Origin: a phage
Direction: 5' to 3' (one strand)
Sequence record: PX930853.1
DNA length: 51,150 nt
The notes under the pieces were generated by a model. It was not told the DNA's origin, made no database searches, and saw only the letters and a program-made list of their open reading frames with translations. Numbering within the stretch: the stretch's first letter is position 1; the number at the start of each line of letters is the position of its first letter. Made by a program: the position numbers and the translations under genes. Positions 11,861 to 50,148 of this stretch are shown in pieces.

Positions 11861-11921
11861 GATCACCTCCTTAATTAATTGTAAAGCGAAAATCCGTTTT
11901 CGCTTTAACATATTGTGCTAT

Positions 11922-14407: not shown

Positions 14408-17089
14408 TCAACCTCGCTTGCTCATAACAAATTCGTAAACCTCCCCGCCCTGCATACAGGAACGTTTAATCATATCAGTAAAGATCATCTTAACACCAGT
14501 TTCGATACCCTTCGGATCGTTGCCGTTATTGATGCTAACATCAATCCCACCGATGTTAAATTGAGGTGCTCCACCAGTGACAGCTCCACCGCCAGTATAG
14601 CCGGAACTACCAACCGCGCCTCCGTTAGCATAGCCTCGCATCATGCGGTACAAGTTGCCTACCCCGATACGCTGCGTCGCCTCCTTCGTCATGACAAATT
14701 CACCTTTATGGACAATTCCGGCTGGCTCATACTTCCCGCCGTCGCCAGTGTATCCACCGCCAGCAAATCCGCCAATGTTCTTAAGCAAGCTCCCCATCGT
14801 CCAGGTTTGACCACCCATCAGGCCAGATAACGCATTAAAGACAACCATTTTCGTGATCATCTGAATAATCATTTTGATGATAGCCGTCGAGAAGTCTTTA
14901 AAGTTTGCCTTGCCAGTAGCGATAAAATTCGCTAATTGGTTTGTAAGGCCGTTTAACGCCTCGCTTGCGATCTGCTGAACATTGCCATAGGCATTGTTTG
15001 CATCTTCCGCGAATAGCTCCCATGCGTTTTTTGCTCCTGCCAACCAGTTGCCTTGAACCTCATCCTGTGTCTGATAATACTGCTTAAGTTTCGCCTCCAT
15101 TTGCTGAAAAACTTCATCGCTAACGCTTCCTCCTTGCGCCTCGTAGTCGGTGCGCAGCTTGCGTAACTCTAGCTCACGCTCGATCTGCTTTTCAGTGTAG
15201 CCAAGTTGCTTAAGGCCAAGCACATCAATAGCCGCCTGCGTTTCACGGATAAACTTAATGCTATCTTGCTCCAGCTTGTTTTTGCGCTCCTGCAAAACAA
15301 TCTGATCCCCTAATTCAGCCTTTTGCCTTGCCATTTCCAAAACGGATTTTTGCTCATTTAGTAGCGCCTGTTCCGCTCCGGTCAATTTACGCTTACTCTG
15401 CGCATCCTCCAGGATCTCGATCTGCTTTTCGATGCTCCATAAAGATTTACGCTGGCGAGAAATAACATCATTAACAGTGCGATGCTCTTTAAGCGTTTCC
15501 AGTTGCGCTTTTAAAACGTACAACTCTTTATCAAGCTGCTCAGTCGGGCCGCGAACTATTCCGCCTTTAGCCTCTTTCTTTTTCTGCTCCTGCTTCTTGA
15601 TCTCCTCAAGCTCTTTGCGTCTGAACTCCACGTTTTCAGCCGCACGCTTTTTCAGTTCTTCATCAGCCGAACGCGCCACGCCCTTCTGATCTTCAATGGC
15701 TTTGTTTAAAGCCTCCTGTGCTGCTCTCACTCTGTTCAAGGCCAGGTTTTCTTTGTCGATGCGCTCCGCTCGTTCAGCCATGTCCTTATTAGCATCTTTT
15801 ACGACCTTTCCAATGTCTTCATAAGTGTTAAGTGCAAACTTAAGCATAGGATTAACATAGCCAAGCTCTTTACCTAACAGGCCGCCGGACGGGGAAGCGT
15901 AATCACGCTTCGCTTTCAAAACTTCATACCACGACTCGCCCAACTCAAGGATTTTATTTTTGTGGTTTGCAATGTCGTTATTCAGGCCAACAAAGCTAGA
16001 TGCGCCTTTGTACTCGTTGACTTTCTTTTTTGCGTCATCATAAGTCATGCCAACGTCAACCAGTTTTTTAATCGCCTCGCTCGCTCCGTCTTTCGTGGTG
16101 ATGTAAGCCTTTGCCAGATCTTCGGCGCTTTCGCCTGTCTTGTCGGAAAGCTCCTGGATTCCGGTAGCAATCTTTTCGGCAAAATCACCAGTCAAGCCAG
16201 TTGTTTCCTGAACGGTTTTTTTAATTGCCTCAAACTCTGCCTGTGTTTTGTAGGCATTATATGCAGCAATTGCCAGCGTGCCGGAAAGCAAGCCAAACGC
16301 CACGTTTACCGGATTCAGGAAAGATAGCAACGCTTTTAAAGCATTGGATGCGCCACCAAAAGAATCCTTAATCTGTCCACCCTGCTGGATTGCTACCAAC
16401 CAAACGGGCATACCAGAAGCAAGTGAAGTCACCACGTCTGTGATCTGCATTGGCAATAGCTTCATTGCTTGATTGTATTGGCCTGTAGAAATCCCAAGTT
16501 TTTGGATCTGCTTTTCCTGCTCTTTCAGTCTTGCGATGTAAGGTGCTGCCTCCTGGCTAACTCCAAGCTGTGCCGCTTTCATTTCCAGCAATTCAGACTT
16601 GCTTTTTCCGGCTGCTTCTTCCTGCTCACGCAAAGCCTGGATGAATTTTTTAGCCTCTTCCGCTGCACGCGCTTTGTTCTTTGATTCCTCAAGCGCCGCG
16701 CGGCCTTCCTCTGTCATCGCTTTTTTGGTTGCGATCAGCTTGTTTTGCTGTGTCTCAAGAATTGCCCCAAGCTCAAAAAAAGTCTCATCAGGAACAATGC
16801 CCTTTTTCCATAGCGCATCAAGCTGTGTCGCTGCCTTTCGCAGCTTATCCATCTTTGACGCGGTGGGATCAATTGACTCCTGGATTTTCTTAAATTCTGC
16901 TTTCTGGCGCGCTAGTTCTTCGGCAAACTGTTTAGCTTGCTGTCGCGCCACAACCTCAGAATCAACAAATTCATTAACGCTTTTTTTTGCGTCGTCGTTT
17001 GCCTTCTTGAATTGCTGCAATGATTTAACAGCATTGTTGACCTGCGACACGTCAACGCCTAGCGTTAGGCCAGCGTATTTCTCAGCCAT
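14408..17089 (-). CDS. tail tape measure protein
   Basis: 893-aa ORF, long coiled-coil with Gly-rich C-terminus; GGAGG RBS; between chaperone G/T and M. Confidence 0.85.
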   Translation of the reverse strand: MAEKYAGLTLGVDVSQVNNAVKSLQQFKKANDDAKKSVNEFVDSEVVARQQAKQFAEELARQKAEFKKIQESIDPTASKMDKLRKAATQLDALWKKGIVPDETFFELGAILETQQNKLIATKKAMTEEGRAALEESKNKARAAEEAKKFIQALREQEEAAGKSKSELLEMKAAQLGVSQEAAPYIARLKEQEKQIQKLGISTGQYNQAMKLLPMQITDVVTSLASGMPVWLVAIQQGGQIKDSFGGASNALKALLSFLNPVNVAFGLLSGTLAIAAYNAYKTQAEFEAIKKTVQETTGLTGDFAEKIATGIQELSDKTGESAEDLAKAYITTKDGASEAIKKLVDVGMTYDDAKKKVNEYKGASSFVGLNNDIANHKNKILELGESWYEVLKAKRDYASPSGGLLGKELGYVNPMLKFALNTYEDIGKVVKDANKDMAERAERIDKENLALNRVRAAQEALNKAIEDQKGVARSADEELKKRAAENVEFRRKELEEIKKQEQKKKEAKGGIVRGPTEQLDKELYVLKAQLETLKEHRTVNDVISRQRKSLWSIEKQIEILEDAQSKRKLTGAEQALLNEQKSVLEMARQKAELGDQIVLQERKNKLEQDSIKFIRETQAAIDVLGLKQLGYTEKQIERELELRKLRTDYEAQGGSVSDEVFQQMEAKLKQYYQTQDEVQGNWLAGAKNAWELFAEDANNAYGNVQQIASEALNGLTNQLANFIATGKANFKDFSTAIIKMIIQMITKMVVFNALSGLMGGQTWTMGSLLKNIGGFAGGGYTGDGGKYEPAGIVHKGEFVMTKEATQRIGVGNLYRMMRGYANGGAVGSSGYTGGGAVTGGAPQFNIGGIDVSINNGNDPKGIETGVKMIFTDMIKRSCMQGGEVYEFVMSKRG

Positions 17090-17763: not shown

Positions 17764-17777
17764 CTCAAGATCTCCTT

Positions 17778-17797
17778 ATAGCACTTTTTGTTAAAAG
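17778..17797 (+). promoter_or_regulatory. conserved intergenic box, oriented opposite to flanking late genes
   Basis: ATAGCACTTTTTGTTAAAAG; TAGATT hexamer ~22 nt downstream; faces the 3' end of the major tail gene. Confidence 0.3.
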
Positions 17798-17837
17798 TGG
17801 AATTGATTTATTTGATAGATTGATTTTACAGGAATGA

Positions 17838-17862
17838 AAAAAGGGGCGCAACGCCCCTTGTT
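17838..17862. terminator. bidirectional terminator after major tail protein gene
   Basis: AGGGGCG-CAA-CGCCCCT stem with A6 upstream and TTGTTTT downstream. Confidence 0.6.
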
Positions 17863-18525
17863 TTAATTGATGTCGGAAGATAAGAACGTAAATCGACCTT
17901 TCAGAGATACGGAGAGGGAAACAGTTTCCATTTCGTTCATGGTGGTTTGCGGAATGTCATTAAAGGACAATACGCCAGCCCAGCAACGCATCTCTTTAGC
18001 TTTCGGAACGTACATACGCAAAGCGGTTACGTCGCCGGATTCCTCAGCCTCGCGCAAGATCGGATAAATCGGATTATCATATTCATGCGCGAAAGTGTAG
18101 GTAAGAGAAACGGCGCTCTTATAGGTCGGTAACTGCTGCTCCTGGTCATCAGCCAAACACTGATAAGTGTAATACTGTTGCTCGCCGCCGTCCTGCGCAA
18201 GATCCTGTACGCAAGGAATCTCTACCCAAGATTTCACCTCTCGGAAAGTTGCTGTGTTCTGTCCTTCTGGAAATACGTTTGTATCTTTAGTGCTAACACC
18301 TTCAAGAGTAACACTTACATTATCTGAAACTTCCTTAACTCGAAGCACGCGACTAACAAGTTTACCCCAAGAAGATGTTTCAATAAGAACATAAGCGCCC
18401 TTTTTGATGCTTTGAGTGTTTGCAGTCGTAAAAACAGGATCATCAGCATTGATGATTTGAGTAGCGCTAATAGGCTCACCCATATTAACGCCGATGAAAA
18501 TTTGAGAACCATTAGGCAAGTGCAT
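17863..18525 (-). CDS. major tail protein
   Basis: 220-aa ORF immediately upstream of G/G-T/tape measure; followed by strong terminator. Confidence 0.75.
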   Translation of the reverse strand: MHLPNGSQIFIGVNMGEPISATQIINADDPVFTTANTQSIKKGAYVLIETSSWGKLVSRVLRVKEVSDNVSVTLEGVSTKDTNVFPEGQNTATFREVKSWVEIPCVQDLAQDGGEQQYYTYQCLADDQEQQLPTYKSAVSLTYTFAHEYDNPIYPILREAEESGDVTALRMYVPKAKEMRCWAGVLSFNDIPQTTMNEMETVSLSVSLKGRFTFLSSDIN

Positions 18526-18527
18526 GA

Positions 18528-18929
18528 TTATTCCTCCTTTGTATCAAGCCTAACACTGAAACGGATCGGCAATAACCAACCTGTTTCACTTTTTAGTAAT
18601 GTGTTGACGTTTGCCCCCTCGCTAATATAGCCAGTTTCAATCATTCTACCATCATAGAAAAATCTCGCAATCTCTTTAGCCAGCAAACGCGCTTTATCAG
18701 TGCCGCCGCCAGGAGGAATGACAATTCCAACCTGAACCAAACCGATGTAAGAAACACATTTTCTATCAAGAGATATGCGATCCGTGTCCGCTTCCATGTA
18801 GTTAAATTTTAACCACATAGAACCATCTCCAGGCGGCACAAAATCAACGTTTTCATAGGCTATCTTAAATCGTGATTCATATTCAGCCGCCAGCGCCTTT
18901 CTTGCCGCCAACATTAAATCATAGTGCAT
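18528..18929 (-). CDS. tail terminator / tail completion protein, putative
   Basis: 133-aa ORF directly upstream of major tail gene; assignment by position. Confidence 0.4.
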   Translation of the reverse strand: MHYDLMLAARKALAAEYESRFKIAYENVDFVPPGDGSMWLKFNYMEADTDRISLDRKCVSYIGLVQVGIVIPPGGGTDKARLLAKEIARFFYDGRMIETGYISEGANVNTLLKSETGWLLPIRFSVRLDTKEE

Positions 18930-21529: not shown

Positions 21530-21550
21530 GATAGCACTTTTTGTTAAACG
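21530..21550 (+). promoter_or_regulatory. conserved intergenic box, oriented opposite to flanking late genes
   Basis: GATAGCACTTTTTGTTAAACG between decoration-like gene stop and capsid gene start. Confidence 0.3.
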
Positions 21551-26140: not shown

Positions 26141-26169
26141 TTGATTATATAACTTTTTAGCAATTAGTG

Positions 26170-27738
26170 CTATTTATTGCGTAGACCTGCCAGCTTTTTC
26201 ATCCTTGCTACCGGATCATCTGCCAAATTCATTTCGACGTTAACAGCATCAACTATATTATCGACAATATCATCATGGGGATGAGAATCATCAAAAGTGA
26301 ATGCTGCAACCTCTGCTAGTATCTCAGGCAGCATGGGGTGATTTTCTGGCAGTGCCACACGTCCGGCCCTCATTACTGGCGCGGCGTCCATTGCTCGCGT
26401 CACCTTGTCATTGCTTCGCTGAACGGGATTTATATCAATCGGGATCTTCTTTTTGGCCCCCTGAATCAAACCCGTGCCGCTGGCCTTATCCTCAATGTGG
26501 ATACGTCGCAAGCTGCCACACTCCTTATTGCGCTTCCAGCACTGGTTAACGAAGGCAATAAAATTTAATTCAAGATCCGGCGCTTCCCACTTTCCGCGAA
26601 TGCCATCAATGAAGTAAACTCGATTCTTATACATCCCCCAATAACAAAAAACCGAATAGTCGTTAAGCTCTCCGGCCTTCTGCGCGGTATCTCCAGTAAT
26701 AAATGTGTATTCAAAGCGATCCGGTTTTGGTAGTGCGCACTTTTCGCCGCTGCCGTAATACTGGAACCACTCTGTTTTAAACACGTTCCCGCCAAGCGCG
26801 ATTGGTTGCTGTTGGTATTGGCTGGCGAACGTGTAAGGATCTGCATTGCGCAATGCAAGCAACTCCTCCGCGCTTTCCTTCGCAGGCCAAAATGAATAAT
26901 GAGCGACGCCATCTATCATCACTGGCTTACTTGACAGCACATCACGATCAAATTCAGGCTTCAACCAATCAGGAAGCGTTTCGCGGTATTCTTTCGTAAC
27001 CAGCGCCGGAATGCTCACGACTTTAAACTCAATACCACCCATCCCGCCATTAAGCATGAACCAGGTGGAATCATTAACGTGTAGTCGCTGTTGCACCATA
27101 ACAATTGGCGTTGTGTCTTTCATTCGACGCGATCGCACTGTGTTTTTTAACCGCATATGAATAGCCTCGCGCTTGACCTTAGAAAGCATATCATCCGGCT
27201 TGTCTGGATCGTCAAGAACCAGCATACCAGTAAAACCATCGTCCATATAGCCGCCACGCAAACCTGTTACCTGGCCGCCAATAGAACGTGAGTTAACTTG
27301 CAATTTAACCTTGCCGCCTTCGGTGACTATCAGATCTTTAGCGCTCGCCTTTGCCAGTTTTCCTGGCCATAGCTCTTGCCACTCATGAGAACCAATAATC
27401 TCCTTTATCCGGTTGCTGTTTTGCTGGACAAGGCCATCACTAAACGAAAGGTTAAGATTTCTCACCTTCCGGCTTTTCAATGACGCGTAGGGTGACATGT
27501 GGATCGAGAAAATCTCAGTCTTGCCGCTACCTGGAGTAATGTTGAAAATCACATTCCGCGACTCTCCATTGATGATCTTCTCTACCTCACTGCACAATAA
27601 GCTAAAATGCCAGTTGCTCTGGAATTTTTGCCCCTGCAATAATTGGAACCAGATTCTGATCATCTTTTCGAATGAATGCTCACTGATTTCTTTAATGGCT
27701 CGCTTTTGCGCAGCCGTCAAATCTTCCCATATGATCAT
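26170..27738 (-). CDS. terminase large subunit
   Basis: 522 aa; Walker A-like PGSGKTE, nuclease-type C-terminal acidic residues; start overlaps small-subunit stop. Confidence 0.85.
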   Translation of the reverse strand: MIIWEDLTAAQKRAIKEISEHSFEKMIRIWFQLLQGQKFQSNWHFSLLCSEVEKIINGESRNVIFNITPGSGKTEIFSIHMSPYASLKSRKVRNLNLSFSDGLVQQNSNRIKEIIGSHEWQELWPGKLAKASAKDLIVTEGGKVKLQVNSRSIGGQVTGLRGGYMDDGFTGMLVLDDPDKPDDMLSKVKREAIHMRLKNTVRSRRMKDTTPIVMVQQRLHVNDSTWFMLNGGMGGIEFKVVSIPALVTKEYRETLPDWLKPEFDRDVLSSKPVMIDGVAHYSFWPAKESAEELLALRNADPYTFASQYQQQPIALGGNVFKTEWFQYYGSGEKCALPKPDRFEYTFITGDTAQKAGELNDYSVFCYWGMYKNRVYFIDGIRGKWEAPDLELNFIAFVNQCWKRNKECGSLRRIHIEDKASGTGLIQGAKKKIPIDINPVQRSNDKVTRAMDAAPVMRAGRVALPENHPMLPEILAEVAAFTFDDSHPHDDIVDNIVDAVNVEMNLADDPVARMKKLAGLRNK

Positions 27739-30314: not shown

Positions 30315-30370
30315 TGCGCTTTCCTCTGTTTCGCTTCAATAAGGGCACTTTACCAAATGCCCTTGCGGAA

Positions 30371-32928: not shown

Positions 32929-32983
32929 GATTTAATCCTCGTTTGTTGTTGATGGGCTTACTATACCGCAAGCCCGTTGAGAT

Positions 32984-33005
32984 GTTTTAACAAAAAGTGC
33001 TATTT
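32984..33005 (-). promoter_or_regulatory. conserved intergenic box (minus orientation)
   Basis: Reverse complement AAATAGCACTTTTTGTTAAAAC; GGGCTT...AAGCCC dyad and TATAGT 22 nt after TTGTTA. Confidence 0.4.
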
Positions 33006-33152
33006 CTTAATACATAGCGTGTGAGTGTACGCATAAAACCTGTTGTTGTTCTTGATCTGCTCTCGTGCCTCAATGCAAGATTGCTGGCTATTCATTTCGA
33101 TATGGTCAACGCCGCCATCAATCATAAGAATCAGCAAAATCCAGGTAGCCAT
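33000..33152 (-). CDS. small ORF (50 aa), not in ORF track
   Basis: GAGGTGAGAG RBS then ATG; MATWILLILMIDGGVDHIEMNSQQSCIEAREQIKNNNRFYAYTHTLCIKK. Confidence 0.25.
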   Translation of the reverse strand: MATWILLILMIDGGVDHIEMNSQQSCIEAREQIKNNNRFYAYTHTLCIKK

Positions 33153-33228
33153 CTCTCACCTCAATAAAATCTAAACAGGTAGGCAAACAATCCGATCCAT
33201 GCGGCGACGTGCGCCGCAGTGAGCAAAC

Positions 33229-34122
33229 TCAAATCTTCACCTTCCACTTAACCATCGTTCCGCGCTTGATGCTGATCTCACCTGCAACCGTACGGTTTTT
33301 AGCGCAGCCATAGTGAAGCAGGAGGATAACAACATCATCATGAATTTCGATCGTCTTTGGTGTAGCCGTTAATTCATACCATGTACCATCATCAAGCCGG
33401 ACTCCTTTTAGCGTGGCTGCAACTGGCATATCTTCAATTGCGCCCTGCGTTACGATTTCTTGATTTGCAAAGGCGCTCTTGTCAATACGCCAGCCTCCAG
33501 GTGCTTTCATTTCGGCAGCCGCTTTGTGGATCTCATCGCCAATGATTTTTTGAATTGACGTCTTACCGCCGCCGAATTGAGTTTCTCCAAATAAGTGTTT
33601 TGTAATATCTTCCACGTAATACACTTTATCTTTTTCGTTGTGCGGATTGTGTCTATTGTGACCATTGACAAAGAAATCAACTTTCAACTCTGATTTCGTA
33701 CCATCGCTATAAACGCCATTGCCGCGCGATGTGAATCGAATCGTTGAATTACCAACCGTGTAGAACGTGATCGGGTACTTGATATTGTCCACACTTAAGC
33801 ACCACGGCTTTTTGTAGTCGCATGTTTTCATATTGACCATCGGAATCTCTGCGCGTTCCGGCGATCGCACTGGCAACACCTGGCCTTTATATGGCTTGTA
33901 GTGGAAGCTGGTATATCCTGGCATTGCATAGCCATAGTCTTTAAGTGCGTTGTAGTGCGTATTGTGTGCATCAATAAAGTGTTCAATCTCCATTGTTGAT
34001 GGGCTTAGTTTGTCGCTATTCATATCAACCTTATGGCATGTTTTTGCATCGGTAAAAATGTAATGACCAATGACGCGAGATTCGAAGGTGATCGGGAATT
34101 TAATGTCAGCAAGTTTTAACAT
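33229..34122 (-). CDS. hypothetical protein (297 aa), largest unknown in leftward early region
   Basis: ORF track; no motif I can assign with confidence. Confidence 0.55.
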   Translation of the reverse strand: MLKLADIKFPITFESRVIGHYIFTDAKTCHKVDMNSDKLSPSTMEIEHFIDAHNTHYNALKDYGYAMPGYTSFHYKPYKGQVLPVRSPERAEIPMVNMKTCDYKKPWCLSVDNIKYPITFYTVGNSTIRFTSRGNGVYSDGTKSELKVDFFVNGHNRHNPHNEKDKVYYVEDITKHLFGETQFGGGKTSIQKIIGDEIHKAAAEMKAPGGWRIDKSAFANQEIVTQGAIEDMPVAATLKGVRLDDGTWYELTATPKTIEIHDDVVILLLHYGCAKNRTVAGEISIKRGTMVKWKVKI

Positions 34123-34201
34123 GGTGCTTTCTCCTGATTGGTTTAACTGGGCGACGCCGTGCCGCCCTATGTGATTTATTATGCCTGGTTATCGTTTTTG
34201 A

Positions 34202-34223
34202 GTTTTAACAAAAAGTGCTATTT
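34202..34223 (-). promoter_or_regulatory. conserved intergenic box (minus orientation)
   Basis: Reverse complement AAATAGCACTTTTTGTTAAAAC ~80 bp upstream of 33229..34122 start. Confidence 0.4.
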
Positions 34224-34407
34224 AGAATTTCACTTCTTCCACAAGCTCAACCATCTTGTAACCAAGACGATAAGAGTCACCGAACAACAAGATCCCCATA
34301 AATTCATCGTGGCTTATTGACTCTTTGCCAACCGTTCTAAGCTCTCCGTTGTGAATCACAGTATCGCCGATCTTGATTTCTGATTTATGGACTAATTTCG
34401 TTTTCAT
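34222..34407 (-). CDS. hypothetical early protein (61 aa)
   Basis: ORF track. Confidence 0.45.
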   Translation of the reverse strand: MKTKLVHKSEIKIGDTVIHNGELRTVGKESISHDEFMGILLFGDSYRLGYKMVELVEEVKF

Positions 34408-34422
34408 TTATTCACCTGCTAA

Positions 34423-34608
34423 TTAAAAGAAAGCTACATAGTTTGCAATGCCTTTGGCGTCGTCGTTTGGCATTGCTTTTACAGCCAGGTCATAACCTGC
34501 CTCTACCTTCTGCTTTGCTGCTTCTTCGTTGTAGCCCCAGATAACCAGGATTTTAACTACGTTTTCTTTGTTCAGGACTTTAAGGTCTTTGGTGATGCGA
34601 CGTGCCAT
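34423..34608 (-). CDS. hypothetical early protein (61 aa)
   Basis: ORF track; ~55 bp downstream of conserved box. Confidence 0.5.
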   Translation of the reverse strand: MARRITKDLKVLNKENVVKILVIWGYNEEAAKQKVEAGYDLAVKAMPNDDAKGIANYVAFF

Positions 34609-34664
34609 TTTTGTTTCCTCAATCTCGTTTCGATGAGGCTATTATGCCAGGCTTTGCGCCTGGC

Positions 34665-34686
34665 GTTTTAACAAAAAGTGCTATTT
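34665..34686 (-). promoter_or_regulatory. conserved intergenic box (minus orientation)
   Basis: Reverse complement AAATAGCACTTTTTGTTAAAAC followed by GCCAGGC-GCAAA-GCCTGGC dyad and CATAAT. Confidence 0.4.
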
Positions 34687-34953
34687 TGTCTCGACGGTCA
34701 TATGTTCTGTCTTCGTGCCTTTGCCGTTGCTTTTCGACACTTCCCAGCTAGTCGTTCCCTTGCAGTTGGTGAAGTAAACAGTGCGACCGTCATAGAATCG
34801 GTAAACAGTGCAACCATCGGCGGTGAATAGCTCCCTTACGCTGTAGTCATCGCCAGGGTTAGCCATCTGCACATTGCCAACATGCGCGCCATCCTCTTTG
34901 CATCCGGTCAGGAATGCCATTGCCACCAAAACACCGATTAACGCCTTTTTCAT
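34681..34953 (-). CDS. lipoprotein (second lipobox protein), function unknown
   Basis: MKKALIGVLVAMAFLTGC signal peptide with lipobox. Confidence 0.6.
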   Translation of the reverse strand: MKKALIGVLVAMAFLTGCKEDGAHVGNVQMANPGDDYSVRELFTADGCTVYRFYDGRTVYFTNCKGTTSWEVSKSNGKGTKTEHMTVETK

Positions 34954-35414
34954 TGCTCATCCTCCAGGAAAGTTTTTTTGATCATCGCGTGAAAGTCAGC
35001 GACGGCCTTTGATAATGTTTCATACTCTTCCGGAGCATAGTTTGCCAGGTTGGGTGACATATCGATGATCGCCTCTGCAACTTTGCGCTTGGCCTGGCGT
35101 ACTGCCCTTTCCAATGCCTCTTTGTTGTAAACCTTGCGACGGCCTTCAACAATGCGCACCTCGTAGAAAGTGCTACCGAAGTTTTCATCTTCCGGCCCGT
35201 AAACGCCACGGGTAACGGATACGCGCCCCCGCTCGGCGACTTCTGGCACTCGACTCATGATCTGGCGAATGTAGGCCGCCGGATTGCTTGCCGACTTCTT
35301 GCCGAACATGTGGACCTGCAAATACGCGTCAGGAATATTGATCGTCTCTTCCTCGCCATTAGCCAGCATAATAGCGGCACGGCGCAGCGTGTCAGTGAAT
35401 GATTGCTCGCTCAT
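34950..35414 (-). CDS. hypothetical protein, first gene of leftward early operon
   Basis: ORF track; start moved to ATG preceded by AGGAGG. Confidence 0.5.
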   Translation of the reverse strand: MSEQSFTDTLRRAAIMLANGEEETINIPDAYLQVHMFGKKSASNPAAYIRQIMSRVPEVAERGRVSVTRGVYGPEDENFGSTFYEVRIVEGRRKVYNKEALERAVRQAKRKVAEAIIDMSPNLANYAPEEYETLSKAVADFHAMIKKTFLEDEQ

Positions 35415-35614
35415 TTCTGCCTCCTGGTTGTTAGGTGTGGGCATTATCAATAATGCTATTTAATGTGTCAACTGTTTTTTCTTGTTCCAGCGTGTTTTAT
35501 CAATTTTATATGGTGGCACAATAACAATATGGGCGTTATTTTTCCTTATAAATCAATGTTATCATTGCTTGTTATCGAAGTTTTCTCGCGGAAAGTGCCA
35601 TATAGATATATATG

Positions 35615-35775
35615 CCCCTACATACCCATACACACATATAGATACACAAAAACTATATACCCCCACCAAATACCACAATAACCAAGATAACAAAAGAGAA
35701 TATATAGATACATATAAATAAATAATCCTTATTTTTCAATGTATTATATAGGTATTGTTTGTTATTTTTTGTTAT
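35615..35775. repeat. AC/AT-rich non-coding repeat, copy B (homologous to 6165..6335)
   Basis: Same ordered sequence blocks as copy A; both copies lie in divergent intergenic regions. Confidence 0.6.
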
Positions 35776-35889
35776 CGTATTTTGCGGAAGGTCAACAAAA
35801 GAACAGGTGGGAACGGAACATAACAACCACTGACAGCCAGGCGGAAAAGTGAGGCAAGAGGGGAAGGTTTCACTATCTCCCCTGCAATC

Positions 35890-35985
35890 AATGATTAAAC
35901 GTGATTACTTTCTCATCAAATTTGCAAATGCAATCATCATTTTGACGTGATTTGATTACGAATGATTACTTTTGATTATTTCTAT
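35890..35985. promoter_or_regulatory. phased GATTA(C) repeats and 10-bp palindrome ATTTGCAAAT (candidate operator/origin-like element)
   Basis: Five GATTA(C) units at ~10-11 bp spacing in two clusters; perfect palindrome near 35920. Confidence 0.3.
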
Positions 35986-36010
35986 CACAGTCCTGGCGCT
36001 AACCGTCAAA

Positions 36011-38802: not shown

Positions 38803-39330
38803 ATGAATTGGCACGATTACTTTACATACAATCCAGAAACTGGAAAGCTGTTCTGGAAAGAAAGAAAAGATATTCACCCATCAAGAGTTAAACAATGGAA
38901 TGCTTGCAATGCTGGTAATGAGGTTGGCTCTTTTGGTAGTGGTGGCAGATATTTAGAAACTGCACTTACTGTAAACGGAAAACGTTATAACCTGAAAGTT
39001 CATAGAATATGCTATGAAATGCACTATGGGCCTATACCGGAAGGAAAGGAGGTTGATCACGTAAATCACATCACGACTGATAACAGAGCAATAAACTTTG
39101 AGTTAAAAGATCACAAAGGAAATATGCGAAACACATCAAAGCAGAAAAACAATACAAGTGGCATACCAGGTGTGCATAAAAATAAACATGGCAAATGGGT
39201 TGTAAGGGTTGGAGGCGGAAAGCGAGGAAGTAGGATTTATATAGGTTGTTTTTCCAGTTTTGGAGATGCTGTTGCCGCAAAACGTAAAGCCGAGAATGAA
39301 TTGGGGTATCATAAAAATCATGGGAAATAA
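38803..39330 (+). CDS. HNH homing endonuclease with AP2-like DNA-binding domain
   Basis: YNPETGKLFW...VDHVNHITTDNRAINFEL HNH signature; C-terminal GIPGVHKNKHGKWVVRV AP2-like segment. Confidence 0.65.
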   Translation: MNWHDYFTYNPETGKLFWKERKDIHPSRVKQWNACNAGNEVGSFGSGGRYLETALTVNGKRYNLKVHRICYEMHYGPIPEGKEVDHVNHITTDNRAINFELKDHKGNMRNTSKQKNNTSGIPGVHKNKHGKWVVRVGGGKRGSRIYIGCFSSFGDAVAAKRKAENELGYHKNHGK

Positions 39331-40006
39331 AGTTGCTTACTCAATGTTTGATGGATCTGGAATCATGCTGCTTGAATATGCGAAGGCTGGCTATCAATGC
39401 TATTGCTTTAACGCTGATGAAGGCAATCACGGCGAATATTTCATCAAGATGAAACATGAAAATCTGCATTATGTGAATATGTGGATTGATGAAAATTTCA
39501 TTGAAAGAATCAGTAAGATTGGTATTCCAAAACCAGATATTGTATTTGGATTTCCAGACTGCACCATGTTTGCCCAATCAGGAATCAAGCACGTGCGAAG
39601 CGATGATGATATTCAGGTTGCGCTCAAAAATGCAATCATGGTTGAAACTGTCGGGAATCATTTCGGTGTCCCCTGGATGGCTGAGAATCCTGTAGGCCGA
39701 CTATCAACGCTATGGCGAAAGCCTGATTTTTATTTCAATCCTCGCGATTTTGGTAACTACCTGGACGAATCCGATGGATCTTTTCACCCCAAGATGCCGC
39801 TAAAGGATGGCTACACAAAAAGGACTGCTATCTGGTGCGGCAACGGATTTACAGAACCCGAACGCAAGCCGTTATCCAATGATGATGGCGTAATGTTCTT
39901 TTGGGGTTGGAAGTTTTTAGGCGGTAAGTCTGCCAGAACAAAGCAACTACGCTCCCTCACTCCGCGCGGCTTTGCTCGCGCCGTCTTTGAGTCAAACTCA
40001 AAATAG
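39320..40006 (+). CDS. putative SAM-dependent DNA methyltransferase (C5-cytosine-like motifs, atypical)
   Basis: FDGSG (motif I-like), FGFPDC (PC-like motif IV with inserted Asp), AENPVG (ENV-like); start overlaps 3' end of HNH gene. Confidence 0.4.
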   Translation: MGNKVAYSMFDGSGIMLLEYAKAGYQCYCFNADEGNHGEYFIKMKHENLHYVNMWIDENFIERISKIGIPKPDIVFGFPDCTMFAQSGIKHVRSDDDIQVALKNAIMVETVGNHFGVPWMAENPVGRLSTLWRKPDFYFNPRDFGNYLDESDGSFHPKMPLKDGYTKRTAIWCGNGFTEPERKPLSNDDGVMFFWGWKFLGGKSARTKQLRSLTPRGFARAVFESNSK

Positions 40007-40022
40007 CACTTTTTGTTAAAAG
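40002..40022 (+). promoter_or_regulatory. conserved intergenic box
   Basis: AATAGCACTTTTTGTTAAAAG then CCAGGT-GTAAAAA-ACCTGG dyad then CATAAT; ~50 bp before ATG 40076. Confidence 0.4.
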
Positions 40023-40075
40023 CCAGGTGTAAAAACCTGGCATAATCACATCGAACAAACAAAGGAGATCTGATC

Positions 40076-40462
40076 ATGAATGTTATCTGTAATGAAACCA
40101 ACGTATTGATGAAAGGCCGTTTTAAAACTGTTTATCAGAAGATTGCAGGAAGTGATGATGTGATCGAGGTGGAAGAGTTCCAGGTTAAGACGCTTGTTAA
40201 GGGTGGCCGCTGGCTTCCAGCAAACCGAGATGATTACCGCGCCATTAACACAAAAACCGTTCTTTGCACGTTTGTAGATCATAACATGCCGTGCAAAAAG
40301 CACTTTAAGCAGGGCAAGCGATACCAGATCGAGAAAGGGCGACCGCTTGGAAGCGTTGCGGGTTATGTTTTTGATGAGTGCGGCGACCGCTGGAACCTGT
40401 ACCGTGAAGAGGTCGGATTCTCTGCTGGCGGCTGTTATCTGTTTGAGGGCAAATATCTGTGA
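40076..40462 (+). CDS. hypothetical early protein (128 aa)
   Basis: AAAGGAG RBS. Confidence 0.5.
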   Translation: MNVICNETNVLMKGRFKTVYQKIAGSDDVIEVEEFQVKTLVKGGRWLPANRDDYRAINTKTVLCTFVDHNMPCKKHFKQGKRYQIEKGRPLGSVAGYVFDECGDRWNLYREEVGFSAGGCYLFEGKYL

Positions 40463-40696: not shown

Positions 40697-40748
40697 GGGG
40701 TAGTATTGGGCCGTTAAAATTTACGGCCCACAAAGGAGAAGCTAACGA

Positions 40749-42858: not shown

Positions 42859-42918
42859 GCCCGGCATAGTGTCGGGTATATTTGTTTCATCGAAACGAAA
42901 CAACCAAAAGGTAAAATT

Positions 42919-46023: not shown

Positions 46024-46080
46024 TTTTTATTTCCTCATGTTTGCTTCGTTGAAATAATTATGCCCGACACTAGGCCGGGC

Positions 46081-47093: not shown

Positions 47094-47151
47094 TTCTCCG
47101 CTATTAAAAGCCATCTCGTGTTATTGAATTATGGCGCAATCCATCGCGCCA

Positions 47152-49671: not shown

Positions 49672-50148
49672 ATGAAAGATGCACGAATTGCAGTGTCTAC
49701 GGGTGAGATCGACAAGCGCACTATTAACGGTAACAACGGAACGCGACGAGGTAAAGACAAAAAGCCACGAAAACACAGAACCGGATTTCTTATCCTGCGA
49801 GATGAGGTAAAAGCAAGCCTGAAATCTCGCCTTGACATTCTGATCGAGTATTACGGCGGCGTTCCTGCTATGGCTCGACGTCTGCGCGTATCTCAGCAAG
49901 TTGTTAACCAATGGCGAAAGCGTGGTATGATTTCAGCCGCTGGAGCACAAAAGGTGCATAACGACTACAAATATAATGGATGCAAAGGATACCGCGCCTC
50001 GTTTTGTCGTCCAGATCTGCGGTTTGATTCTAACGGCAAGCCTCTTACTACCCGTTGCGACAAATACGAAATGTTGCGCGTAGTCAAAAATTCAGACTAC
50101 GAACCAGGCGGACGATTCTACAAAGGTGATAACAGCACGAATAGCTAA
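49672..50148 (+). CDS. putative DNA-binding protein with Cro/YdaS-like helix-turn-helix
   Basis: GGVPAMARRLRVSQQVVNQWRKRGMIS HTH-like segment; basic N-terminus. Confidence 0.45.
   Translation: MKDARIAVSTGEIDKRTINGNNGTRRGKDKKPRKHRTGFLILRDEVKASLKSRLDILIEYYGGVPAMARRLRVSQQVVNQWRKRGMISAAGAQKVHNDYKYNGCKGYRASFCRPDLRFDSNGKPLTTRCDKYEMLRVVKNSDYEPGGRFYKGDNSTNS

What the first reader, a model, noticed from the sequence alone, without database searches (positions are those of the whole stretch)
40002..40046. GC-rich dyad symmetry immediately 3' of the box, then a -10-like hexamer
In most early-region copies the box is followed directly by a 6-7-bp GC-rich inverted repeat and then an A/T hexamer, for example CCAGGT...ACCTGG + CATAAT at 40023-40046, GCCAGGC...GCCTGGC + CATAAT after the 34665 copy, and GGGCTT...AAGCCC with TATAGT in the loop after the 32984 copy. 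The composite box + hairpin + hexamer looks like one regulatory unit. Alternatives are a promoter whose spacer carries an operator or cruciform, a 5'-UTR stem-loop that stabilises or processes the mRNA, or, read on the opposite strand, hairpin + GTTTTAAC acting as weak terminators against antisense transcription.
Basis: partly seen in the sequence, partly recalled or inferred. Interest (0 to 1): 0.6.

Follow-up and report, generated by a model that had tools for sequence, protein, structure and literature searches.

The report
Promoter-embedded RNA hairpins in T1-like phage
Each short early gene of this T1-like coliphage is followed by a repeated promoter that has a small selected RNA hairpin tucked inside it, much like the promoter/stem-loop cassettes known from T4-like phages, and probably serving to mark the end of the upstream message.

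Summary
The window is a T1-like coliphage (Drexlerviridae, Warwickvirus). The 20-bp box AATAGCACTTTTTGTTAAAA occurs 17-18 times. It is followed by exactly 19 nt, a G, a TAnnnT hexamer, 6 nt and CA, which is the layout of a sigma-70 -10 element and start site.

In 316 box copies from related phages, perfect stems of at least 6 bp occur in 38% against 5% in controls. They lie either inside the 19-nt spacer (the focal copy, 40022-40041) or around the -10. Stems differ between copies but keep pairing through compensatory and G.T changes. G.T outnumbers A.C (31 clusters against 2), and GNRA loops occur only on the sense strand. So the structure is selected in the sense strand, most simply as RNA.

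The hairpins lie upstream of the predicted start site and are commoner where an upstream gene ends in the box. They therefore belong to read-through transcripts. This argues against an operator or cruciform, a 5'-UTR hairpin or an antisense terminator.

The closest known system is the PeSL cassette of T4-like phages. As with PeSLs, homology breakpoints between relatives fall at the boxes. The T1 GenBank record already annotates four such hairpins as terminators, but their U-tails are weak, so the exact role (attenuator or 3'-end stabiliser) is inferred. This is a new member of a known kind.

The parts
39260..40006 (+). Upstream gene, a Dcm-like DNA methyltransferase. Its stop codon TAG (40004-40006) lies inside the box.
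   Evidence: ORF list; PHROG DNA methyltransferase, E = 5e-78; annotated dcm in relatives. The TAG of the box is the upstream stop codon in 161 of 234 instances.
40002..40021 (+). Focal copy of the 20-bp box AATAGCACTTTTTGTTAAAA. It is the upstream promoter element, at about -51 to -32 from the predicted start site.
   Evidence: 17 copies against 0.02 expected; nearly invariant in 316 instances. It is also a junction of homology between related phages.
40022..40041 (+). Class A hairpin filling the 19-nt spacer: GCCAGGT, loop GTAAAA, ACCTGGC.
   Evidence: RNA fold -14 kcal/mol, z = -5.2. Orthologues change only to T.G wobbles, or shift by 1 nt while keeping the stem and the 19-nt spacing.
40041..40046 (+). 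-10 hexamer CATAAT, preceded by TGg (40038-40040), an extended -10 TGn.
   Evidence: Fixed 19-nt distance from the box; TAnnnT signature and G at -14 across 316 instances.
40050..40054 (+). Predicted transcription start zone. This copy lacks 3 nt of the usual discriminator, so the conserved CATCGAA begins at 40049.
   Evidence: Family consensus CA lies 6-7 nt after the hexamer; alignment with orthologues. This is inferred, not mapped.
40062..40078 (+). Shine-Dalgarno AAGGAG (40062-40067) and the ATG (40076-40078) of the downstream 128-aa gene.
34646..34664 (-). Class A hairpin GCCAGGC, GCAAA, GCCTGGC of the 34666 copy. Its -10 CATAAT is at 34641-34646.
   Evidence: -15.7 kcal/mol, z = -3.6.
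42859..42877 (+). Class A hairpin of the 42838 copy (GCCCGGC/GTCGGGT, with a G.T pair). Its -10 TATATT is at 42877-42882.
   Evidence: Flagged as terminator-like in the sense direction. Compensatory T-A to C-G change in orthologues.
46062..46080 (-). Class A hairpin of the 46082 copy (GCCCGGC/GTCGGGC, with a G.T pair). Its -10 CATAAT is at 46057-46062.
   Evidence: Compensatory C-G to A-T change in an orthologue.
47132..47151 (-). Class A hairpin of the 47153 copy (TGGCGC/GCGCCA). Its -10 CATAAT is at 47128-47133.
   Evidence: The T1 counterpart is annotated as a rho-independent terminator.
11884..11905 (-). Class A hairpin (GCGAAAA/TTTTCGC) of the degenerate 11903 copy. Its -10 TACAAT is at 11878-11883.
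   Evidence: z = -3.4.
32954..32975 (-). Class B hairpin of the 32985 copy (GGGCTT/AAGCCC) with the -10 TATAGT (32960-32965) in the loop.
   Evidence: -14.9 kcal/mol, z = -4.1.
30341..30364 (-). Class B hairpin of the 30372 copy (AAGGGCA/TGCCCTT) around the -10 TAAAGT.
   Evidence: Compensatory A-T to G-C change in an orthologue.
40707..40730 (+). Class B hairpin of the 40676 copy (GGGCCGT/ACGGCCC) around the -10 TAAAAT.
   Evidence: -15.6 kcal/mol, z = -3.0.
33005..34665 (-). A 1.66-kb gene module flanked by two direct box copies (34666-34685 and 32985-33004). It is absent from, or replaced in, four close relatives.
   Evidence: Homology breakpoints lie at the box edges. Phage SLUR29 has a single box joining the same two flanks.

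Best explanation
The unit is a composite promoter and stem-loop cassette of a T1-like phage.

**The promoter.** The box (about -51 to -32), a spacer of exactly 19 nt, a G at -14 and the TAnnnT hexamer form a host-RNA-polymerase (sigma-70 type) promoter. It starts transcription about 7 nt after the hexamer, at a conserved CA. An A/C-rich leader and a ribosome-binding site follow.

**The dyad.** The GC-rich dyad is not part of promoter recognition. It is a hairpin selected to fold in the sense strand. It occupies the only sequence-free positions between the stop codon of the upstream gene (usually the TAG inside the box) and the next start site. Those positions are either the whole spacer (class A, as at 40022-40041) or the spacer plus the discriminator, with the -10 in the loop (class B).

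**How it probably works.** The hairpin lies upstream of its own promoter's start site, so it is transcribed only when polymerase reads through from the upstream gene. There it most likely forms the 3' end structure of the upstream message. It would act as a weak terminator or attenuator, and/or as a barrier to 3'-exonucleases, and it would insulate each small gene cassette.

**The repeated box.** The boxes also serve as short homologies at which cassettes are exchanged between phages.

**Shown:** the geometry, the enrichment, the covariation, the strand of selection, the association with upstream genes and the breakpoints at boxes.

**Inferred:** the start site, that the folding molecule is RNA rather than sense-strand DNA, and the attenuator/stabiliser role.
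For: **Geometry.** In 316 unique instances the 19-nt spacer carries little information. Then come G (86%), the hexamer T/C-A-T-A-A-T with A2 87% and T6 89%, and then C (73%) and A (84%) at positions 31-32.

**Enrichment.** Stems of at least 6 bp occur in 38% against 5% in controls. Mean sense-strand MFE is -10.2 against -5.1 kcal/mol in column-permuted controls. In the window, 10 of 16 copies fold with z between -2.4 and -5.2.

**Two positional classes** exactly fill the unconstrained positions.

**Covariation.**
- Within orthologue clusters there are 18 stem pairs with double changes, 17 changed on one side via G.T only, and 5 that only break.
- The count of structure pairs gives covariation scores of 0.675 and 0.892, against 0.26-0.30 in shuffles (0 of 500 reach the observed value) and 0.05-0.26 in slid controls.
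- Orthologues of the focal copy keep the stem through T.G wobbles and a compensated 1-nt shift.

**Strand.**
- Single non-Watson-Crick pairs inside stems are G.T or T.G 56 times and A.C or C.A 5 times. By cluster this is 31 against 2, P = 1.3e-7.
- 24 of 51 class A tetraloops are GNRA and 6 are UNCG on the sense strand. None would be GNRA on the antisense strand.
- The sense fold is more stable than the antisense fold in 211 instances against 99.

**Read-through link.**
- A hairpin is present in 75% of copies where a co-oriented ORF stops at the box, against 46% otherwise (P = 4e-6). The cluster-level median is 77% against 46%, P about 6e-4.
- In the window, the promoters with no upstream co-oriented gene (36009, 49642, 6404, 21530) have no hairpin.

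**Prior annotation.** The T1 GenBank record marks four of these hairpins as sense-direction rho-independent terminators. A pattern scan flags the 42838 and 46082 copies the same way.

**Analogy.** PeSLs of T4-like phages have the upstream stop codon in an AT-rich stretch. Their stem-loops lie most often between -35 and -10 or over the -10, and contain G-T pairs. One stem-loop was shown to reduce downstream expression like a strong terminator (PMC2839356, read; PMC4122927).

**Cassette exchange.** 5 of 31 unique homology breakpoints against four relatives lie within 3 nt of a box, where 0.9% is expected (P about 9e-6). One clean box-to-box insertion was found.
Against: - No transcript ends are known. 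The start site and the read-through are inferred from sequence only.
- The hairpins score poorly as canonical intrinsic terminators. The median discriminant is about -39 (class A) and -56 (class B), against +8 for T1's late terminators, because the U-tail is weak (the formula was recalled from memory).
- The excess of T in the discriminator of class A copies is only marginal once orthologues are collapsed (median P 0.06).
- About a quarter of 'internal' promoters lack a hairpin, and 46% of copies without a detected upstream ORF have one.
- G.T tolerance and GNRA-type loops would also fit a hairpin in sense-strand single-stranded DNA.
- The sequences used for searches were selected because they fold in that register. 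This inflates the percentage paired, though not the diversity of pair types.
- Instances from related phages are not independent. Cluster-level tests were used to limit this.
- How the box itself is recognised is unexplained. Its TTGTTA lies 22 bp from the -10, too far for a normal -35.
Confidence: 0.6

Rival explanations
1. The hairpins are antisense terminators. Read on the opposite strand, the hairpin followed by (C/G)UUUUAAC stops transcription running against the early genes.
For: For copies with perfect stems the antisense RNA folds well and is followed at once by four U. The focal copy folds at -12.3 kcal/mol followed by CUUUUAAC, and the 34666 copy at -16.1. The class A antisense tail score is slightly higher than the sense tail score (1.86 against 1.21).
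Against: - Wobble pairs are G.T on the sense strand, which become A.C mismatches on the antisense strand: 56 against 5, or 31 clusters against 2.
- GNRA/UNCG loops occur only on the sense strand.
- The antisense folds of the 42838 and 46082 copies are no better than shuffles (z about -1).
- Class B hairpins lie 7-13 nt from the UUUU run.
- No antisense hairpin has a positive terminator score.
- The association with a co-oriented upstream gene is not expected under this reading.
Confidence: 0.08
2. The dyad is a DNA-level element of the promoter. It would be either an operator for a dimeric regulator sitting in an over-long spacer (as in MerR-type promoters) or a cruciform that tunes the promoter with supercoiling.
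For: The dyad lies in the spacer between a -35-like TTGTTA and the -10, and that spacer is abnormally long at 22 bp. The phage encodes a Cro/YdaS-like helix-turn-helix 'transcriptional regulator'. As DNA, the focal stem folds on both strands at about -7 kcal/mol.
Against: - Stem sequences differ completely between copies, with up to 4-6 pair types per stem position. No single protein could read them.
- Position varies between two classes and several registers.
- Promoters with the same box and -10 but no dyad exist.
- The strong G.T over A.C asymmetry means that only one strand needs to fold.
- Stems of 6-8 bp are short for cruciform extrusion (general knowledge).
Confidence: 0.05
3. The hairpin is a 5'-UTR stem-loop of the downstream mRNA. 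Transcription would start at or just after the box, so the hairpin would be at the 5' end of the message and would stabilise or process it.
For: The structure is selected on the sense strand. 5'-terminal hairpins are known mRNA stabilisers (general knowledge). If RNase E cut read-through RNA in the A/U-rich box, the hairpin would become 5'-terminal on the downstream fragment.
Against: - The only strongly conserved sigma-70 signals (G at -14, TAnnnT, CA) lie downstream of, or inside, the hairpin. They place +1 after the 3' arm in both classes.
- The best -10-like string inside the box (TAAAAC) lacks the conserved final T.
- Promoters without an upstream gene lack the hairpin. That is unexpected if the hairpin served the downstream mRNA.
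Confidence: 0.07
4. The hairpin forms in sense-strand single-stranded DNA. It could form on the lagging-strand template during replication as a priming or recombination signal. Alternatively it could form on the non-template strand, presenting the -10 in a loop to sigma (class B).
For: G.T mismatches and GNRA/GNA-type loops are also favourable in DNA hairpins (general knowledge). Genes point away from the AT-rich repeat region at 35.5-36 kb, so the sense strand would be the lagging-strand template if that region is the origin. In class B the -10 sits in the loop.
Against: - Class A hairpins do not contain the -10.
- The DNA folds are weak, at -5 to -7 kcal/mol.
- Some loops are UNCG, which is special only in RNA.
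- The link to an upstream co-oriented ORF is explained by read-through RNA, not by replication.
- There is no evidence that the origin is where assumed.
Confidence: 0.07

Closest known systems
PeSL (promoter-early stem-loop) cassettes of T4-like myoviruses RB49/phi1, PST and nt-1 (Arbiol et al. 2010, PMC2839356; Comeau et al. 2014, PMC4122927)
   Same: - A repeated intergenic unit made of, in order, the upstream stop codon in an AT-rich stretch, a host-type early promoter, a Shine-Dalgarno sequence and a start codon.
- A stem-loop of variable sequence, most often between the upstream element and the -10 or over the -10, with G-T pairs on the sense strand.
- Concentration among small genes of unknown function.
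- Insertion, deletion and replacement junctions between close relatives fall at the repeats (searches compared).
   Different: - The phage family is different (Drexlerviridae siphoviruses).
- The upstream element is a specific 20-bp box whose TTGTTA lies 22 bp from the -10, not a near-consensus -35 at 17 bp.
- The stems are mixed GC sequences rather than G(n)...C(n).
- Terminator activity and mini-circles have not been tested here.
Rho-independent (intrinsic) terminators, including those annotated in the phage T1 GenBank record NC_005833
   Same: - A GC-rich hairpin of similar stability (median -11.5 kcal/mol) lies just after a stop codon.
- Four T1 homologues are annotated as sense-direction terminators, with the -10 and discriminator acting as a T-rich tail.
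- Two window copies pass a simple terminator pattern.
   Different: The U-tract is weak or absent. The tail score is 1.2 (class A) or 0.5 (class B), against about 3.5-4 for the phage's own late terminators. Only 2-3% score above zero on the classical discriminant.
Intercistronic stabiliser hairpins in polycistronic mRNA (for example REP-type and other 3'-exonuclease barriers)
   Same: A stable sense-strand hairpin without a U-tract lies between cistrons. Its sequence is free but its pairing is conserved.
   Different: This comparison rests on general knowledge only. No decay data exist for this phage, and the hairpin is nested inside a promoter.
Extended -10 and class II activator-dependent sigma-70 promoters
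   Same: There is a -10 hexamer with G at -14 (full TGn in roughly a quarter to a half of copies). There is no -35 at the normal distance. The conserved upstream element is centred at about -41.5.
   Different: The factor that reads the box, if any, is unknown. The box is not palindromic and matches no site known to me.

Membership tests
PeSL-type composite promoter/stem-loop cassette | A repeated intergenic motif containing a host sigma-70-type early promoter next to a Shine-Dalgarno sequence and a start codon. | tested here: met
   The -10, the G at -14, the CA start, the leader and the RBS are conserved in 316 instances. However, the upstream element is a box at a non-canonical distance, not a -35 at 17 bp.
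PeSL-type composite promoter/stem-loop cassette | A stem-loop placed within or next to the promoter, most often between -35 and -10 or over the -10, of variable sequence and with G-T pairs. | tested here: met
   Classes A and B. G.T 56 against A.C 5. Covariation.
PeSL-type composite promoter/stem-loop cassette | The stop codon of the upstream gene lies in the AT-rich part of the motif. | tested here: met
   The TAG of the box is the stop codon in 161 of 234 instances, and TAA or TGA lies within 1-2 nt in most others.
PeSL-type composite promoter/stem-loop cassette | Insertion, deletion and replacement junctions between close relatives lie at the motifs. | tested here: met
   5 of 31 unique breakpoints lie within 3 nt of a box, P about 9e-6. 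A box-to-box 1.66-kb insertion relative to SLUR29. Partial matches end at the box edges.
PeSL-type composite promoter/stem-loop cassette | The stem-loop terminates or attenuates transcription, and excised mini-circles form. | not testable with these tools
   This needs reporter assays and PCR on infected cells.
Canonical intrinsic terminator | A GC-rich hairpin followed directly by a U-rich tract of about 7-8 nt. | tested here: not met
   The hairpin criterion is met. The tail criterion is mostly not met: median d is -39 and -56 against +8 for positive controls, and 2-3% score above zero. A minority of copies (42838, 46082) pass a looser pattern.
Sigma-70 promoter with canonical -35 | A TTGACA-like hexamer 16-18 bp upstream of the -10. 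| tested here: not met
   The TTGTTA of the box is 22 bp from the hexamer. The consensus scan does not pick up the box promoters.
MerR-type promoter with an operator in the spacer | One conserved palindromic operator sequence in a 19-20-bp spacer, shared by the regulated promoters. | tested here: not met
   The dyad sequences differ between copies and between orthologues. Selection is strand-asymmetric.
N4 virion-RNA-polymerase hairpin promoter | A conserved hairpin with a 5-7-bp stem and a 3-nt loop at a fixed position, plus a phage-encoded RNA polymerase (features recalled from memory). | tested here: not met
   Loops are mostly 4-6 nt (class A) or span the -10 (class B), and the register varies. 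The features compared were recalled from memory, and the window was not systematically searched for a phage RNA polymerase gene.
Sigma-54 promoter (TGGCAC-N5-TTGC) | GG at -24 and GC at -12 separated by exactly 10 nt. | tested here: not met
   The box reads TAGCAC-TTT-TTGTTA. The GG is absent in all copies but one, and the spacing is 2 nt too short.
Rfam RNA families | A match to a curated covariance model. | tested here: not met
   No match at gathering score in the whole window, and none with E up to 1 in 39950-40120.

The most novel reading that the evidence does not exclude
The box promoters may be a distinct, phage-specific promoter class. They have no -35, and a non-palindromic 20-bp element is centred at -41.5 and would be read by an unknown phage or host factor. 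In this reading the nested sense-strand hairpin is an active part of the switch. For example, read-through transcription or hairpin formation on the non-template strand could gate firing of the downstream promoter. Each cassette would then be a self-insulating and mobile expression module that drives gene exchange across Drexlerviridae.
Probability: 0.15. Interest if true: 0.65.

Novelty: new member of a known kind. Interest (0 to 1): 0.45.

Why it matters
It gives T1-like phages, which are common laboratory contaminants, therapy candidates and members of the BASEL collection, a concrete map of their early transcription units. About 15 promoters per genome share one recognisable box. Each has a predicted start site, and most carry a hairpin that marks the end of the preceding message.

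It extends the promoter/stem-loop cassette idea from T4-like myoviruses to an unrelated siphovirus family. This suggests that nesting a 3'-end hairpin inside the next promoter is a recurrent answer to very tight gene packing.

It also explains where the mosaic junctions between these phages lie. This is useful for annotation, for engineering (natural insertion sites and portable promoter parts), and for designing the end-mapping experiments that would settle the mechanism.

Tried and rejected
- **Sigma-70 -35 reading of TTGTTA.** Rejected because the spacer is 22 bp.
- **Sigma-54 resemblance (TGGCAC...TTGC).** Rejected on spacing and on the missing GG.
- **CRP, FNR or IHF site in the box.** No convincing match by eye. 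This is a recollection only and was not formally tested.
- **Classical terminator discriminant in both orientations.** Both score poorly, so 'efficient terminator' was dropped in favour of 'attenuator and/or stabiliser'.
- **Excess T in the discriminator of class A copies.** Significant per instance but only marginal per cluster, so it is not relied on.
- **Dcm idea.** The focal stems contain CCWGG and the upstream gene is a Dcm-like methyltransferase. CCWGG in spacers is only modestly enriched (29 against 17 expected; 14 of 134 clusters), so it is treated as a side note.
- **Literature searches** for the box sequence, for T1-like or Drexlerviridae promoters, and for transcriptomes found nothing relevant.
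- **Rfam.** No match.
- **GenBank records of relatives.** None annotates a regulatory feature at the focal site. Only the T1 record annotates some hairpins as terminators.
Full report
**What the window is.** The region around the finding is 97-99% identical to Escherichia phages AV105, Poky and JLBYU07. The records fetched are classified as Drexlerviridae, Tempevirinae, Warwickvirus. So the window is a T1-like coliphage genome. The gene upstream of the focal site (39260-40006) is a Dcm-like DNA methyltransferase. The gene downstream (40076-40462) has no known function.

**Checking the observation.**
- box AATAGCACTTTTTGTTAAAA at 40002-40021
- GCCAGGT (40022-40028), loop GTAAAA (40029-40034), ACCTGGC (40035-40041)
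- CATAAT at 40041-40046
- AAGGAG at 40062-40067 and ATG at 40076

The box occurs 17 times with up to 3 mismatches, against 0.02 expected, and 18 times with up to 4. Its orientation follows the genes in the early regions. As RNA the focal segment folds at -14 kcal/mol, z = -5.2, and 0 of 200 shuffles do as well. Ten of the 16 copies tested in the window fold with z between -2.4 and -5.2.

**Fixed geometry.** An exact-match scan of viral contigs for 18 nt of the box returned 120 stretches from T1-like phages. Together with the window they give 316 unique box instances. In these:
- The 19 nt after the box carry almost no sequence information.
- Position 18 is G in 86%.
- Positions 20-25 are T/C-A-T-A-A-T, with A at position 2 in 87% and T at position 6 in 89%.
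- Positions 31-32 are C (73%) and A (84%).
- CATCGAAAC and a purine-rich ribosome-binding site follow.

This is the signature of a sigma-70 -10 element, with part of an extended -10 and a start site 7 nt downstream. It places the box at about -51 to -32. The TTGTTA inside the box is 22 bp from the hexamer, so it cannot act as a normal -35. How the box is read remains open. The start site is inferred, not mapped.

**Is the dyad more than chance?** Perfect stems of at least 6 bp (loop 3-14) between the box and the start site occur in 38% of instances. After permuting each column among instances, which keeps position-specific composition, the figure is 5.2%, with a maximum of 6.3%. Mean sense-strand MFE is -10.2 kcal/mol against -5.1 in that control.

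The stems fall into two positional classes:
- Class A has both arms inside the 19-nt spacer, with the 3' arm ending at positions 19-22. The focal copy is of this class.
- Class B has the 5' arm at positions 7-13 and the 3' arm at 26-31, so the -10 hexamer sits in the loop.

These are exactly the positions that the promoter leaves free. That explains why the hairpin sits either in the spacer or astride the -10.

**Conservation by compensation.** Stem sequences differ between paralogous copies and between orthologues, but pairing is kept.
- Within clusters of orthologous cassettes, 18 stem pairs show changes on both sides, 17 change on one side only through G.T, and 5 only break.
- On two fixed-register alignments, the covariation scores are 0.675 and 0.892. 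Shuffled controls give 0.26-0.30 (0 of 500 reach the observed value) and slid controls give 0.05-0.26. The rows were chosen because they fold in that register. This inflates the percentage paired but does not create the diversity of pair types.
- For the focal copy, Hanrivervirus orthologues show T-A to T.G and C-G to T.G changes. pSf-1 shifts the stem by 1 nt and shortens the loop by one, which keeps both the stem and the 19-nt spacing. PeterMerian has a different hairpin at the same place.

**Which strand folds?** Stems interrupted by a single non-Watson-Crick pair contain G.T or T.G 56 times and A.C or C.A 5 times, where controls give about equal numbers. Counted once per orthologue cluster, this is 31 against 2, P = 1.3e-7. 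Of 51 class A tetraloops, 24 are GNRA and 6 are UNCG on the sense strand, and none would be GNRA on the antisense strand. The sense fold is more stable than the antisense fold in 211 instances against 99.

Selection therefore acts on the sense strand alone. This argues against a duplex palindrome (operator) and against a cruciform, both of which need both strands. It also argues against an antisense-RNA terminator as the main function. For the perfect-stem focal copy taken alone, the antisense RNA also folds (-12.3 kcal/mol) and is followed by CUUUUAAC. A side effect on antisense transcripts there cannot be excluded.

**Which transcript contains the hairpin?** Both classes end at or before -1 of the predicted start site. 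So the hairpin is not in the mRNA made from its own promoter. It is transcribed only by polymerases arriving from upstream.

In line with this, the upstream gene usually stops inside the box. The TAG of AATAG is the stop codon in 161 of 234 cases. A hairpin is present in 75% of copies with such an upstream co-oriented ORF and in 46% of the others (P = 4e-6). With one representative per cluster the figures are 77% against 46%, median P about 6e-4.

In the window, four promoters have no co-oriented gene upstream, and none has a hairpin. They are 36009 (the first rightward promoter), 49642 (in a divergent region), and 6404 and 21530. By contrast, 9 of the 11 internal promoters do have one.

**Terminator or not?** The T1 GenBank record annotates four homologous hairpins as sense-direction rho-independent terminators. 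There the -10 and discriminator serve as the T-rich tail. A simple pattern scan flags the 42838 and 46082 copies in the same way.

On a classical hairpin-plus-tail discriminant (formula recalled from memory; T1's late terminators used as positive controls, median +8), the embedded hairpins score about -39 (class A) and -56 (class B) in the sense direction, and worse in the antisense direction. The hairpins are as stable as those of real terminators, but the U-tails are weak. The extra T in class A discriminators is significant per instance but only marginal per cluster.

I therefore describe the role as a 3'-end element of the upstream message: a weak terminator or attenuator and/or an exonuclease barrier. 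This role is inferred, not demonstrated.

**Comparison with known systems.** The closest described system is the PeSL (promoter-early stem-loop) of T4-like phages. In RB49 and phi1 the motif starts with the upstream stop codon in an AT-rich stretch and contains a sigma-70-like promoter. Its stem-loop is 'most commonly' between -35 and -10 or overlapping the -10, with G-T pairs. One stem-loop reduced downstream lacZ expression like a strong terminator, and the repeats mediate gene shuffling (PMC2839356; PMC4122927).

I tested the shuffling feature here. Against four close relatives, 5 of 31 unique homology breakpoints lie within 3 nt of a box, where 0.9% is expected (P about 9e-6). The 1.66-kb module at 33005-34665 is flanked by two box copies. 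Phage SLUR29 has a single box joining the same two flanks, and AV105 has different genes there. Partial matches to the focal region in more distant phages also stop at the box edges.

The differences from PeSLs are:
- the phage family
- the specific 20-bp box at a non-canonical distance in place of a -35
- the stem composition
- the absence of any experimental test

No paper in the searchable library mentions the box or promoters of this kind in T1-like phages. No Rfam family matches.

**Verdict.** The unit is a phage promoter with a sense-strand RNA hairpin from the upstream transcription unit nested inside it. It is a T1-family counterpart of PeSL cassettes. It counts as a new member of a known kind and is of moderate interest. 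The open questions are what reads the box, and whether the hairpin terminates, pauses or stabilises.

Noticed in passing
window 33005-34665: A 1.66-kb module of four small ORFs, with an internal box at 34203, is bounded by direct box copies (34666-34685 and 32985-33004). SLUR29 has one box joining the same flanks. AV105 carries different genes there, including a polynucleotide kinase. This looks like box-to-box recombination.
   Followed up: yes
window 17777-17865 (+) and 21530-21549 (+); T1 (L121) 18832-18851 (-) and 15068-15087 (-): Box copies point against the late structural genes, and their positions are conserved between this phage and T1. The 17777 copy has a -10-like TAGATT at the standard 19 nt and points into a bidirectional terminator about 40 nt downstream. 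It would make only a tiny RNA, and its spacer forms an unusual AU/GU-rich hairpin (z = -5.0).
   Followed up: partly
window 35440-36010: A roughly 550-bp AT-rich non-coding region separates the divergent early operons. It contains several short direct and inverted repeats (ATATAGATA, TGATTA(C), TTGTTATC/GATAAC) and a half-box (AAAGTGCCAT at 35592-35601, the complement of ATGGCACTTT). It may be an origin or a regulatory hub.
   Followed up: partly
window 35471-35443 (-): This is the only near-consensus sigma-70 promoter in the early region (TTGACA, 17 bp, GATAAT; 11 of 12 matches). It precedes the first leftward gene (34950-35450, DUF7174). This raises the possibility that box promoters are a later class needing a phage factor.
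   Followed up: no
window 40023-40040 and 34647-34663; gene 39260-40006: The arms of the two CCAGG/CCTGG hairpins are Dcm sites (CCWGG). The gene just upstream of the focal copy is a Dcm-like methyltransferase. CCWGG abutting the -10 is modestly enriched in spacers (29 against 17 expected). CCWGG is not avoided in the genome (118 sites against 68 expected).
   Followed up: partly
all box copies, for example 40004-40006: The box carries a built-in stop codon. The TAG of AATAGC terminates the upstream ORF in 161 of 234 instances, so coding sequence runs into the promoter.
   Followed up: yes
positions +1 to about +20 of each unit, for example 40049-40061: The leader is conserved, A/C-rich and G-poor (CATCGAAACGAAAC...) between the predicted start site and the Shine-Dalgarno sequence. 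It is presumably kept unstructured. The focal copy has lost 3 nt between the -10 and this motif.
   Followed up: no
window 49672-50148 (+): This gene is a homologue of T1 gp23, annotated as a 'transcriptional regulator' (PHROG 2856). It has a weak Cro/YdaS-like helix-turn-helix and is transcribed divergently from the box promoter of the helicase gene. It is a candidate for the factor that reads the box.
   Followed up: partly
window 26155-26174 (-): An atypical box copy (AATAGCACTAATTGCTAAAA) lies at the end of the large terminase gene. It is followed after 3 nt by TATATAAT and then by a canonical terminator, so it does not have the standard 19-nt architecture.
   Followed up: no
search hits: About 20 records named 'Campylobacter phage' (host given as C. 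jejuni, unannotated) are 82-94% identical to this coliphage region. They are probably E. coli phage contaminants or mislabelled records.
   Followed up: no
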